The notes under the pieces are model-generated. The model was not told the DNA's origin. It did not search any database and saw nothing but the letters and a program-made list of their open reading frames with translations. Positions 26,220-27,366 of a DNA stretch of 31,175 nt are shown here, one piece after another. Each line of letters opens with the position of its first letter. The first letter of the stretch is position 1. This DNA is from a virus (taxonomy: Duplodnaviria; Heunggongvirae; Uroviricota; Caudoviricetes). The position numbers were made by a program, and so were the translations under genes. The stretch lies in IMG/VR virus record IMGVR_UViG_2565956711_000006, positions 1 to 31,175 of that record; one strand, 5' to 3'.

Positions 26220-26395
26220 ATTTGAACTACATCCCCTACTTTAACGGCTTTGGCTTCCTCTTCTGATTTCTTCAGAATTGTGGTTATTGACTCCCTTCCA
26301 TAAGCTGTTACTTTCGCCTCAACCAACCAATACGGCACAATCTCGCCACGACTCACGCTTATGATTTCAACGATCCAGGCGTCTACAAGATTCAT
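26216..26395 (-). CDS. hypothetical small protein (59 aa) coupled between dam and A
   Basis: Not in the ORF track (below cut-off); ATG overlaps dam stop (TAATG) and its TGA overlaps the A ATG (ATGA); MNLVDAWIVEIISVSRGEIVPYWLVEAKV... Confidence 0.45.
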   Translation of the reverse strand: MNLVDAWIVEIISVSRGEIVPYWLVEAKVTAYGRESITTILKKSEEEAKAVKVGDVVQI

Positions 26396-27366
26396 TAAAA
26401 CGCCTCCATATCGTCAAACGTGCCTGCCGCAACCATCGCGTTGTAAGTCGCATCACCCATCACGGCGCCACAATCAGGGCAACCGCCGCCGTAACGCCCG
26501 CAGCAGTCGCAGACAGGCAGCACGCCGATCACTTCTTTGGCCTTCTGGCGGTTGTCTTTGTCAGTGCTGACGGAACGTTGCACGCTGATTTCGTGCATCT
26601 TGAAAGGCTGATAAATCGCGCGGGTGGCTTCGGTGTCGCTGTTGGAAATGACAACCTTCACGCCATGCTTACGGTTAACTTCCAGCAGTGCCTGGACTAA
26701 CTGGCGGTGGTTGTCTTCCGTGAATGGTTCGGTGTGGTATTGGGTAAAATCGGCTGTTTTGCTTTCAGGCAGGTAAGGCGGATCGCAGTAAACGAGAACA
26801 TCGCCACCCGTGACGACCTGTAGAGAACGCTGGAACGGCGCGCAAAGAAATATTGCCTTTGTATCGTTGGCCTTTTCGGCAAACAGGCGGATTTCATTTT
26901 CAGGAAAGTAGACGCTCTTATACTTGCCAAACGGCACGTTAAAGCCGGTCTTACGGCTGTAACGGCATAAGCCGTTATAACCGTGGCGGTTCAGATACAG
27001 GAATTGAGCAGCACGCATGATGCGCGCCATTTCGACGCCATAACGCAACCCACAGCTTTTTACCGTACATACCTGCTTATTGAACGCGGCGCGGACTTCG
27101 TTGTACCCCTGCGGGCTGTTCTTGCTGTTGAACAGTTCGCGGGCCGCATCGATCACTAAGTCCGGGTAACGGGTGACTTTCCGATAAAGGTTAATAAGAT
27201 CCGGGTTGATATCAGCCAGCACATAGCGGCGGTACTCAGTCGCCAGAAATACCGATGCGCCGCCTACGAACGGTTCGATCAGGCAGTCGGCTTTAGGAAG
27301 GTGCGGCAGCAGGTCAGGAAGGACACGGGTTTTACCCCCTGCCCATTTGATGAACGGGCGGATCAT
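26395..27366 (-). CDS. dam: DNA adenine methyltransferase (Dam family) with Cys-rich C-terminal extension
   Basis: [12 protein letters not shown] N-terminus, FVGGASV AdoMet motif, DPPY catalytic motif; extra C-terminal about 45 aa with [14 protein letters not shown]. Confidence 0.85.
   Translation of the reverse strand: [323 protein letters not shown]

What the first reader, a model, noticed from the sequence alone, without database searches (positions are those of the whole stretch)
26395..27366. Dam methyltransferase with a Cys-rich C-terminal extension
The core carries the Dam hallmarks (FVGGASV, DPPY). The protein continues about 45 residues past the usual Dam length with [14 protein letters not shown], five cysteines in 14 residues, which looks like a zinc knuckle. 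A phage Dam could give anti-restriction or replication control; the extra module may alter targeting.
Basis: partly seen in the sequence, partly recalled or inferred. Interest (0 to 1): 0.45.

Follow-up and report, generated by a model that had tools for sequence, protein, structure and literature searches.

The report
Prophage Dam methylase with portable zinc-knuckle tail
This is an ordinary GATC-type DNA adenine methylase of a P2/186-like prophage; its cysteine-rich tail is normal for this clade, and the same small module, which no searched library or paper describes, also sits in RecE exonucleases and other early phage proteins.

Summary
ORF 26395-27366 (-) encodes a 323-aa Dam-family methyltransferase (PF02086, E 1.7e-63). 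FVGGASV, DPPY and all seven EcoDam GATC-contact residues are conserved. It ends in a 41-residue tail, [41 protein letters not shown].

All contexts inspected are the early operon of P2/186-like prophages, next to replication gene A.

The tail is a separate evolutionary unit. Tail types swap independently of the methylase core. The core of the module (second knuckle CPDCG, then xVMGDATYxxM) recurs inside RecE/ExoVIII of Rac-like prophages, in DnaQ-like exonuclease fusions, and in small early proteins of Mu-like, lambdoid and Aeromonas phages. Against RecE it shows 7 synonymous and 0 non-synonymous codon differences. No Pfam family, solved structure or paper I could search describes it.

The module is acidic (6 acidic, 1 basic residue), so a DNA-targeting role is unlikely. 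My best inference, which is not shown, is a metal-stabilised protein-docking tag shared by phage DNA enzymes.

Interest is modest at 0.35: a known enzyme carrying an undescribed accessory module.

The parts
26395..27366 (-). dam ORF, 323 codons plus TAA stop
   Evidence: ORF. (PF02086, TIGR00571, EcoDam 2G1P).
26521..27366 (-). Methyltransferase core, residues 1-282. Predicted GATC readers are K7, Y130, N131, L133, R135, P145 and Y149, equivalent to EcoDam K9, Y119, N120, L122, R124, P134 and Y138.
   Evidence: Alignment to 2G1P and residue mapping. The roles of the EcoDam residues are from PMC4417163. AF2 gives pLDDT mostly above 85 over the core.
27250..27270 (-). Motif I, FVGGASV (AdoMet binding), residues 33-39
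   Evidence: Invariant P32, F33, V34 and G35 in 58 homologues.
26773..26784 (-). Motif IV, DPPY (catalytic), residues 195-198
   Evidence: Invariant D195, P196, P197 and Y198.
27037..27078 (-). Internal insertion relative to EcoDam of about 14 aa (about residues 97-110, [14 protein letters not shown]). It is variable among homologues and modelled with low confidence.
   Evidence: Gap in the 2G1P alignment. No consensus in A2. pLDDT below 50 for residues 100-106.
26398..26520 (-). C-terminal tail, residues 283-323: [41 protein letters not shown]
   Evidence: It lies beyond the last residue aligned to EcoDam. It is conserved in the clade.
26467..26511 (-). Knuckle pair C286-x2-C289-x6-C296-P-D-C299-G300, a putative C4 metal site
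   Evidence: The four Cys plus G294, P297, D298 and G300 are invariant or nearly invariant. CPDCG is invariant across all carrier families. Only sub-threshold zinc-ribbon and rubredoxin hits were found.
26428..26466 (-). Conserved [13 protein letters not shown] segment, residues 301-313, with a predicted short helix at 305-313
   Evidence: G304, T307, Y308 and M311 are conserved in at least 90% of tails. A helix is predicted in both AF2 runs. The segment is shared with RecE and other carriers.
26398..26427 (-). Acidic tip [10 protein letters not shown], residues 314-323
   Evidence: Of 111 homologue tails of at least 20 aa, 79 end in a hydrophobic residue (53 in F). Of those, 53 also have at least 2 acidic and no basic residues in the preceding six.
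26403..26407 (-). Shine-Dalgarno GGAGG for the downstream orf59, lying inside dam codons 320-322. The dam stop and the orf59 start overlap as TAATG.
   Evidence: Read directly from the sequence.
26216..26395 (-). orf59, a small ORF translationally coupled to dam and to gene A. No family match.
23862..26219 (-). P2-type replication initiator gene A (785 aa), the last gene of the coupled run
   Evidence: PF05840 Phage_GPA, E 5.7e-106.
27368..27580 (-). orf70, immediately upstream. Its stop is followed by the dam ATG, with GGAG 9 nt upstream of that ATG.

Best explanation
The gene encodes an orphan, GATC-type Dam methyltransferase in the early operon of a P2/186-like prophage. The gene order is orf70, dam, orf59, replication gene A, and the genes are translationally coupled. 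It most likely methylates phage DNA, and incidentally host DNA, at GATC during replication. In related prophages this part of the operon also holds a C5 methylase, a Lar-like protein and a DEDDh exonuclease, which suggests a self-protection or anti-restriction role. The last 41 residues are not part of the Dam fold. They form a small, portable module: a C4 knuckle pair (CxxC-x6-CPDCG, probably binding Zn, possibly Fe), then a short conserved helix (VMGDATYxxM), then an acidic tip. The same module, kept by purifying selection, is embedded in RecE/ExoVIII-type proteins, in DnaQ-like exonuclease fusions and in small early proteins of lambdoid, Mu-like and Aeromonas phages. I infer that it is a metal-stabilised protein-protein docking tag that tethers different phage DNA-processing enzymes to one common partner, probably a host DNA-transaction hub. 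I do not think it reads DNA sequence. What is shown: the Dam identity, conservation of the tail, its modular exchange, and its occurrence in unrelated carriers. What is inferred: GATC activity, metal binding, the docking function and the identity of the partner.
For: Dam identity rests. All seven EcoDam GATC-contact residues are conserved (their roles are from PMC4417163).

Prophage context: 93.5% nucleotide identity to Enterobacter phage phiT5282H (Peduoviridae). Gene A, Fil and an integrase lie nearby. The three homologues whose contexts I fetched sit between Fil and gene A, beside PF00145, Lar or DEDDh genes.

The tail is conserved: the four Cys are invariant in 58 homologues.

The tail is modular. 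Tail classes interleave across core-identity ranges. The nucleotide similarity to phages SEN4/SEN5 breaks at window position 26482, inside the tail.

The module is portable. tblastn of the tail hits an internal part of RecE (64% identity over 35 aa, E 1e-7). A profile search of 1.84 billion representative proteins finds 45 clusters (41 after four repeat-protein false positives are removed) with varied architectures. Carriers occur in Mu-like and lambdoid early regions.

Purifying selection: over the 13-codon core there are 7 synonymous and 0 non-synonymous differences against RecE, and 5 and 0 against an Aeromonas phage protein.

It is unlikely to bind DNA. The tail has 6 acidic and 1 basic residue, and in RecE it is flanked by long acidic stretches.

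AF2 gives the tail a lower pLDDT than the core (about 53-87 over residues 281-320, against mostly above 85 for the core), as expected for an appended element. The tool returns no PAE or contact data, so whether the tail docks on the core was not tested.
Against: No binding partner is identified, and no experiment or co-folding was possible. The module alone folds with low confidence (mean pLDDT 66). It matches no curated zinc-ribbon family above threshold, so even metal binding is an inference. The conserved residues (T307 as helix N-cap; Y308 and M311 as a small hydrophobic core) could be explained by fold stability alone, without any binding surface. Seven close homologues have a short tail or none, so the module is dispensable for at least some members. 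GATC specificity is inferred from conserved residues and was not measured.
Confidence: 0.5

Rival explanations
1. One reading: the Cys-rich tail is a DNA-binding zinc finger that changes where or how Dam methylates, through altered specificity, processivity or recruitment to particular DNA structures.
For: Every carrier with a recognisable domain is a DNA enzyme: a Dam methylase, a PD-(D/E)XK RecE nuclease or a DEDDh exonuclease. C4 knuckles with aromatic residues can bind nucleic acids; this is general knowledge and was not tested here.
Against: The tail has a net charge of about -5. In RecE the module is embedded in an acidic linker. No match to any DNA-binding zinc-finger family reaches threshold. 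The EcoDam GATC-contact residues are all retained, so no re-targeting is needed to explain the enzyme.
Confidence: 0.12
2. The module is a purely structural or oligomerisation element. It would be a small metal-clasped cap that stabilises, solubilises or dimerises whatever protein it is attached to, with no external partner.
For: The conserved positions fit a self-contained mini-fold: two knuckles, a T-x-x-E helix capping box, and V, Y, M and F as a small hydrophobic core. Tail-less homologues exist.
Against: A generic stabiliser would not be expected to keep 13 consecutive residues identical across otherwise unrelated proteins from three phage groups, with 5-7 synonymous and 0 non-synonymous changes. 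It would also not be expected to sit in the middle of a long disordered acidic linker in RecE.
Confidence: 0.18
3. The functional part of the Dam tail is its acidic tip ending in a hydrophobic residue (FDDMEAF here; WESEENPIPL and SDNPETW in other tail classes). It would mimic the C-terminal tip of host SSB (DFDDDIPF, from my own knowledge). It would then either compete for or borrow SSB-partner pockets, or fold back on the DNA-binding groove as an auto-inhibitor.
For: Of 111 tails, 79 end in a hydrophobic residue (53 in F), and 53 of those have at least 2 acidic and no basic residues in the preceding six. This holds across several unrelated tail classes. Many SSB partners recognise the SSB C-tail and especially its last residue, Phe177 (PMC6393309). 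In L009 and L010 the tips (..DNPIPL..NPETW) are not explained by an overlapping ribosome-binding site.
Against: In the window and in L011 the E-A/G-F tip codons contain the Shine-Dalgarno sequence of the overlapping downstream ORF (GGAGG, GGAGGG). Composition there may therefore be constrained at the RNA level. RecE and the small carriers share the knuckle and helix but not the tip. The resemblance to SSB rests on composition only.
Confidence: 0.1
4. The tail has no protein-level function. It would be conserved only because its DNA carries signals for the downstream genes (translational coupling, ribosome-binding site), or because it is read-through sequence.
For: The ribosome-binding site for orf59 lies inside codons 320-322, and the stop and start overlap as TAATG. 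Some homologue tails look like fusions to the downstream ORF (W-x-G-F/L-D-P-A motifs).
Against: The overlap explains only the last 3-4 codons. The knuckle and helix are conserved at the amino-acid level with many synonymous changes. They also occur internally in RecE and at the C-termini of unrelated proteins with different downstream genes.
Confidence: 0.03

Closest known systems
E. coli Dam (EcoDam; PDB 2G1P, 4GOL, 4RTJ)
   Same: Same D12-class fold and family (E 9.5e-71 over residues 3-282). Same FxGxG and DPPY motifs. All GATC-contact residues are conserved (K9, Y119, N120, L122, R124, P134, Y138).
   Different: It scores below the NCBIfam equivalog cut-off for the housekeeping Dam (279.8 against 441). 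It has an internal insertion of about 14 aa and a 41-aa Cys-rich tail that EcoDam lacks. It is prophage-borne and coupled to replication gene A.
Dam of Enterobacter phage phiT5282H (Peduoviridae) and the Dam clade of P2/186-like prophages of Enterobacterales
   Same: 97.8% protein identity with the same tail. Same position in the early operon. The window protein is simply a member of this clade.
   Different: Nothing of substance. Other clade members carry alternative tails: C4 plus an acidic ..NPIPL end, C4 plus an extra Cys cluster ending ..NPETW, non-Cys tails, or a short tail or none.
N-terminal region of RecE / exodeoxyribonuclease VIII (Rac prophage and relatives), just upstream of the nuclease domain (residues 564-866 per PMC11611040)
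   Same: It contains the same module, [30 protein letters not shown]. The 13-residue core is identical to the window's, and identity is 64% over 35 aa. The tail matches positions 527-553 of the NCBIfam RecE model and phrog_20376 'exonuclease'.
   Different: In RecE the module is internal and flanked by acidic low-complexity sequence. The rest of the protein (PF06630, PD-(D/E)XK nuclease) is unrelated to Dam. The RecE N-terminal region is described as being of unknown function (PMC11611040).
Rubredoxin-type / zinc-ribbon CPxCG knuckles
   Same: Two CxxC(G) knuckles, the second being the classic CPxCG. The best PDB profile hit is the rubredoxin segment CPDCGAAKSD.
   Different: No hit reaches significance (best E 0.2 in PDB; Pfam scores 15-20 bits against cut-offs of 25-29). 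The knuckles are only 6-8 residues apart. No beta-hairpins are predicted. The metal is unknown.
C-terminal tip of bacterial SSB (..DFDDDIPF; from my own knowledge)
   Same: An acidic run ending in a hydrophobic or aromatic last residue. The alternative tail class ..WESEENPIPL is the closest resemblance.
   Different: This is a resemblance in composition only. In this window the tip overlaps the next gene's ribosome-binding site. No binding was tested.

Membership tests
Dam family / D12-class N6-adenine DNA methyltransferase (PF02086, TIGR00571) | Match to the curated family models above their cut-offs | tested here: met
   PF02086 scores 215.1 bits against a cut-off of 22. TIGR00571 scores 273.8 against 114.85.
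Dam family / D12-class N6-adenine DNA methyltransferase (PF02086, TIGR00571) | AdoMet-binding motif I (FxGxG) and catalytic motif IV (DPPY) | tested here: met
   FVGGASV at 33-39 and DPPY at 195-198. Both are invariant in 58 homologues.
Dam family / D12-class N6-adenine DNA methyltransferase (PF02086, TIGR00571) | GATC-reading residues of EcoDam (K9, Y119, N120, L122, R124, P134, Y138) | tested here: met
   All seven are identical in the alignment to 2G1P: K7, Y130, N131, L133, R135, P145 and Y149. Their roles are from PMC4417163.
Dam family / D12-class N6-adenine DNA methyltransferase (PF02086, TIGR00571) | N6-methylation of adenine in GATC | not testable with these tools
   This needs DpnI/MboI digestion or 6mA calling in a dam-minus host.
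Housekeeping Dam orthologue (NCBIfam NF008152 equivalog) | Score at or above the equivalog cut-off | tested here: not met
   279.8 bits against a cut-off of 441. It is a phage paralogue, not the chromosomal dam.
Orphan (solitary) methyltransferase | No cognate restriction endonuclease next to it | tested here: met
   The neighbours are orf70, orf59, gene A, DUF3927 and a TerB-like protein. None matches a nuclease family or a PADLOC model. Small ORFs with no match cannot be excluded formally.
C4 zinc-ribbon / rubredoxin-like knuckle domain | Four conserved Cys arranged as two CxxC knuckles | tested here: met
   C286, C289, C296 and C299 are invariant. CPDCG is invariant in all carriers. In Aeromonas-type carriers the first pair has a different spacing (C-x6-C-x2-CPDC), and a few carriers have only three Cys.
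C4 zinc-ribbon / rubredoxin-like knuckle domain | Significant match to a curated zinc-ribbon family or to a solved zinc-ribbon structure | tested here: not met
   Only sub-threshold Pfam hits were found (DZR, Zn_Ribbon_TF, Zn_ribbon_3; 15-20 bits against cut-offs of 25-29). The best PDB profile hit has E 0.2.
C4 zinc-ribbon / rubredoxin-like knuckle domain | A confidently predicted compact fold | tested here: inconclusive
   Within the full-length model the tail has pLDDT 53-87. The module alone has mean pLDDT 66, with only a short helix predicted. AF2 does not model the metal.
C4 zinc-ribbon / rubredoxin-like knuckle domain | Stoichiometric metal binding | not testable with these tools
   This needs ICP-MS or a PAR assay on purified protein.
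RecE / Exonuclease VIII family (PF06630, NF007259) | Match to the family models over the RecE-specific regions or the nuclease domain | tested here: not met
   There is no PF06630 or DUF3799 hit. Only 26 residues (285-310) match NF007259, at 22.4 bits against a cut-off of 1269. The two proteins share a module but are not in the same family.

The most novel reading that the evidence does not exclude
The knuckle-plus-helix module would be a shared address tag. Through it, temperate phages of at least three groups (P2/186-like, Rac/lambdoid, Mu-like) would dock unrelated early DNA enzymes onto one host hub at replicating or broken DNA, for example SSB or the beta-clamp. The docked enzymes would be the Dam methylase, the RecE 5'-3' exonuclease, a DnaQ-like 3'-5' exonuclease and several small unknown proteins. 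For Dam this would resemble replication-coupled tethering of a maintenance methylase, as with eukaryotic DNMT1 and PCNA. It would also give the first function to part of the RecE N-terminal region, which is described as being of unknown function.
Probability: 0.2. Interest if true: 0.65.

Novelty: new variant of a known kind. Interest (0 to 1): 0.35.

Why it matters
The methylase itself is routine. The useful result concerns its tail, a module of about 30 residues that no searched library or paper describes.

- Its DNA is found in 3943 of 5426 complete E. coli genomes, mostly inside RecE-like prophage genes, with up to 7 places per genome.
- It lies in the part of RecE that a 2023 review still calls 'of unknown function' (PMC11611040). 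[quoted passage not shown]
- A single pull-down with this peptide could therefore inform both phage Dam biology and RecE-based recombineering.

There is also an annotation hazard. Because PHROG 'exonuclease' families include the module, small unrelated proteins that carry it match 'exonuclease' families, as does this Dam tail.

Tried and rejected
1. AF2 of the module alone, with a 39-sequence alignment, gave mean pLDDT 66. That is too low for a meaningful fold search, so I ran none.

2. I searched Pfam with ten module segments at E up to 10 and searched PDB sequences with a profile. Both gave only generic CPxCG knuckle noise, with no family assignment.

3. tblastn of the alternative tail (..CAGYS..WESEENPIPL) against phage records found no match, probably because of the low-complexity filter. 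I could not test whether that tip is itself portable.

4. Seven literature calls (five searches; two full-text look-ups: 28, 59) found no description of the module or of a Cys-rich Dam tail. The retron paper concerns host and P1 Dam and truncated RecE, not the module.

5. I considered the SSB-tip mimicry idea, then downgraded it. In the window and in L011 the tip codons carry the Shine-Dalgarno sequence of the overlapping downstream ORF.

6. DnaJ-type CxxCxGxG: the spacing does not fit and there was no Pfam hit, so I rejected it.

7. Lar/Ral-type zinc ribbon: there was no Pfam hit on the tail. Lar occurs as a separate neighbouring gene in one relative. Rejected.

8. There is no second copy of the module elsewhere in the window.

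9. PADLOC gave nothing for the neighbouring unknown ORFs.
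Full report
**Observation**

It runs 26395-27366 on the minus strand and encodes 323 aa. It matches Pfam PF02086 (D12-class N6-adenine methyltransferase) over residues 8-265 (E 1.7e-63). It matches the NCBIfam Dam subfamily model TIGR00571 at 273.8 bits against a cut-off of 114.85. It aligns to E. coli Dam (PDB 2G1P) over residues 3-282 (E 9.5e-71).

FVGGASV is at residues 33-39 and DPPY at 195-198. The seven EcoDam residues that contact GATC, according to PMC4417163, are K9, Y119, N120, L122, R124, P134 and Y138. All are identical in the alignment, as K7, Y130, N131, L133, R135, P145 and Y149. The protein scores below the equivalog cut-off for the housekeeping Dam (279.8 against 441), so it is a phage paralogue.

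The Cys-rich string [14 protein letters not shown] is at residues 286-299. The protein is 45 aa longer than EcoDam. About 14 of those residues are a variable internal insertion (about 97-110, pLDDT below 50). The true tail beyond the aligned core is 41 aa.

**Context**

The window is a P2/186-like prophage. It has 93.5% nucleotide identity to Enterobacter phage phiT5282H (Peduoviridae) across the dam region. Over the tail it is 100% identical to the chromosome of E. coli strain 0H26.

The neighbours are a 186 Fil homologue, a TerB-like protein, a DUF3927 protein, orf70, dam, orf59 and replication gene A (PF05840, E 5.7e-106), with an integrase further on.

The genes are translationally coupled. 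GGAG lies 9 nt upstream of the dam ATG, directly after the orf70 stop. The dam stop overlaps the orf59 start as TAATG, and the orf59 Shine-Dalgarno sequence GGAGG lies inside dam codons 320-322. The orf59 stop overlaps the start of gene A.

Three homologues looked up elsewhere sit in the same slot between Fil and gene A. They lie beside a C5 methylase (PF00145), a Lar-type restriction-alleviation protein (PF14354) or a DEDDh exonuclease. That suggests a DNA-modification or anti-restriction cassette.

**Is the tail unusual?**

No. Among the 120 best homologues, 118 could be scored. Of those, 85 have a strict CxxC-x5-9-CxxC tail and 99 have a Cys-rich tail of some type. In a 58-sequence alignment, C286, C289, C296 and C299 are invariant, and G294, P297, D298 and G300 are invariant or nearly so. 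G304, T307 and Y308 are conserved in at least 90% of sequences. C288 varies. It is absent from EcoDam, and tblastn coverage of the tail stops short in the more distant phage Dams listed, including P1 Dmt.

**The tail is an independent unit**

Four lines of evidence support this.

- Tail classes interleave in core identity:
  - C4 plus GDATY helix: 55 homologues, core identity 53-98%
  - C4 plus ..CAGYS.. with an acidic ..NPIPL end: 13 homologues, 59-71%
  - C4 plus an extra Cys cluster ending ..NPETW: 7 homologues, 60-82%
  - other C4: 10 homologues
  - other Cys-rich: 14 homologues
  - non-Cys tail: 12 homologues
  - short tail or none: 7 homologues, 60-84%
- The 92% nucleotide match to phages SEN4/SEN5 stops at window position 26482, between the two knuckles.
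- tblastn of the tail against phage records hits the interior of RecE/ExoVIII of Rac-like phages (64% identity over 35 aa, E 1e-7). It also hits an Aeromonas phage hypothetical protein. NCBIfam had already placed residues 285-310 on positions 527-553 of the RecE model, and PHROG places them on phrog_20376 'exonuclease'.
- A profile of 28 Dam tails searched against 1.84 billion representative proteins found only 45 clusters at E up to 1e-3. After removing four repeat-protein false positives, the carriers are:
  - Dam proteins
  - RecE with a PD-(D/E)XK nuclease, where the module lies in the acidic linker before the nuclease
  - the RecE N-terminal region fused to an Rv2179c-like DEDDh exonuclease
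  - nuclease-less RecE-like proteins
  - Aeromonas phage proteins of about 300 aa
  - many small proteins of 65-190 aa with the module at the extreme C-terminus

Two of the small carriers were located. One lies in a Mu-like early region, after Kil. The other lies in a lambdoid recombination region, after RdgC.

Across all carriers, CPDCG and T-Y are invariant and the consensus is KVCxGCGxxGGGxCPDCGPVMGDATYxEMF. The first Cys pair varies in spacing and is occasionally incomplete.

At the DNA level, the 13-codon core [13 protein letters not shown] differs from RecE by 7 synonymous and 0 non-synonymous codons. It differs from the Aeromonas phage gene by 5 and 0. This is long-standing purifying selection on the peptide, not recent transfer or nucleotide-level constraint.

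The core DNA is detectable in 3943 of 5426 complete E. coli genomes, under exonuclease annotations, with up to 7 places per genome. The Dam with this tail occurs in 38 genomes.

**What the module looks like**

Pfam has no family for it. Module segments give only sub-threshold hits to generic zinc ribbons. A profile search of PDB sequences gives at best E 0.2, to the rubredoxin knuckle CPDCGAAKSD.

AF2 on the full protein models the Dam core confidently. The tail scores pLDDT 53-87, with one helix at residues 305-313. The module alone scores mean pLDDT 66 with the same helix.

The pattern therefore fits two metal knuckles followed by a short helix. T307 could be its N-cap, and V302, Y308 and M311 could form a small hydrophobic core. 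That reading is mine and is not shown.

**Function**

The enzyme is most likely an orphan GATC methylase. It would act on replicating phage DNA, being co-expressed and coupled with the rolling-circle initiator A, in a cassette that in relatives holds other anti-restriction functions.

For the tail, a DNA-reading role is unlikely. It has 6 acidic residues and 1 basic residue, and its RecE copy is surrounded by acidic low-complexity sequence.

Several features fit a docking tag for a common partner, presumably host-encoded: extreme conservation of a short peptide, its placement at termini or inside disordered linkers, and its attachment to unrelated DNA enzymes in three phage groups that share no other gene. 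This is inference. No partner was identified and no complex prediction was available.

A 2025 survey of lambdoid recombination modules also suspects 'shuffling of partner interaction domains' (PMC12315714) but does not describe this module. [quoted passage not shown]

**The acidic tip**

Of 111 Dam tails of at least 20 aa, 79 end in a hydrophobic residue (53 in F). Of those, 53 have at least 2 acidic and no basic residues in the preceding six. This holds across different tail classes, with endings such as ..DDLEAF..ENPIPL..DNPETW and ..VDEDAF. That recalls the SSB C-terminal tip, whose last Phe is the main handle for SSB partners (PMC6393309; the SSB sequence itself is from my own knowledge).

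In the window and in L011, however, the E-A/G-F codons contain the ribosome-binding site of the overlapping downstream ORF. That alone could bias them. In L009 and L010 there is no such overlap. I keep this as a low-probability rival.

**Novelty and verdict**

The gene is a known kind of prophage Dam, with near-identical copies already annotated as Dam in public records. What is new is recognising its tail as a portable C4-knuckle module shared with RecE, which is absent from Pfam and from the literature I could search. Its function is unproven. I rate it a new variant of a known kind, with interest 0.35. The most novel reading not excluded is a shared hub-docking tag for phage DNA enzymes, at probability about 0.2.

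Noticed in passing
whole window (1-31175): GATC occurs 191 times, against 102.5 +/- 8.6 in dinucleotide-preserving shuffles; no shuffle reached 191. That is roughly a 1.9-fold enrichment in a phage that carries its own Dam. There is also a GATC-free stretch at 7650-9909, which coincides with lower G+C (composition).
   Followed up: partly
window 26403-26407 and 26393-26397 (minus strand); 27366-27380: orf70, dam, orf59 and gene A are tightly coupled for translation. The TAATG and ATGA overlaps link them, and the ribosome-binding site of orf59 is embedded in the last dam codons.
   Followed up: yes
window 27037-27078 (minus strand), Dam residues about 97-110: A 14-aa insertion relative to EcoDam contains two more cysteines (C100, C105..VCTVKSC..). 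It is not conserved among homologues and is modelled with pLDDT below 50.
   Followed up: partly
L001 (Rac-SA53 recE), P0142, P0141: Some RecE variants lack the first knuckle. It looks as if a deletion occurred between two GGGN-encoding repeats (..[13 protein letters not shown]..), removing several hundred residues of the N-terminal region. Frameshifted fragments that end just after the module also exist (P0143, P0148).
   Followed up: no
P0121-P0164; window 26398-26529: PHROG 'exonuclease' families (phrog_20376, phrog_2082) match all 29 module carriers tested, including the Dam proteins and small proteins that matched no nuclease domain in Pfam, through the roughly 30-residue module alone. 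This is a source of wrong 'exonuclease' annotations.
   Followed up: partly
L009 2929-5478, L010 3687-4316, L011 2714-6179: In related P2/186-like prophages the slot between Fil and gene A also holds a DEDDh exonuclease directly upstream of dam. A C5 cytosine methylase or a DUF3850+Lar protein lies downstream, and in one case a ParE-like gene is present. It looks like a variable anti-restriction cassette.
   Followed up: no
L011 4452-4520; Dam homologues P0020, P0070, P0087, P0110, P0116: An uncalled small ORF overlaps the dam stop in L011 (MNEPVWLAVDPADESGDRTT..). Several homologues have non-Cys tails with the same W-x-G-F/L-D-P-A..G.D.S motif, as if dam were fused to that downstream ORF by a frameshift or by loss of the stop.
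   Followed up: no
window 22646-23872 (minus strand): Two ORFs (259 aa and 139 aa) lie directly downstream of gene A, the position where phage phiT5282H carries two different, larger genes. They have no Pfam or PADLOC match. They may be cargo of unknown function.
   Followed up: partly
window 27805-28278 (minus strand): A TerB-domain protein (PF05099, E 3e-14) is encoded in the early operon of the prophage, between Fil and DUF3927.
   Followed up: no
L007 8537-9541: The gene after the small module carrier P0124 encodes a 334-aa protein with two other knuckles (CSRCKGHG ... CPDCGGRGKV, a weak DnaJ CXXCXGXG hit). It is a different Cys motif from the one studied here.
   Followed up: no
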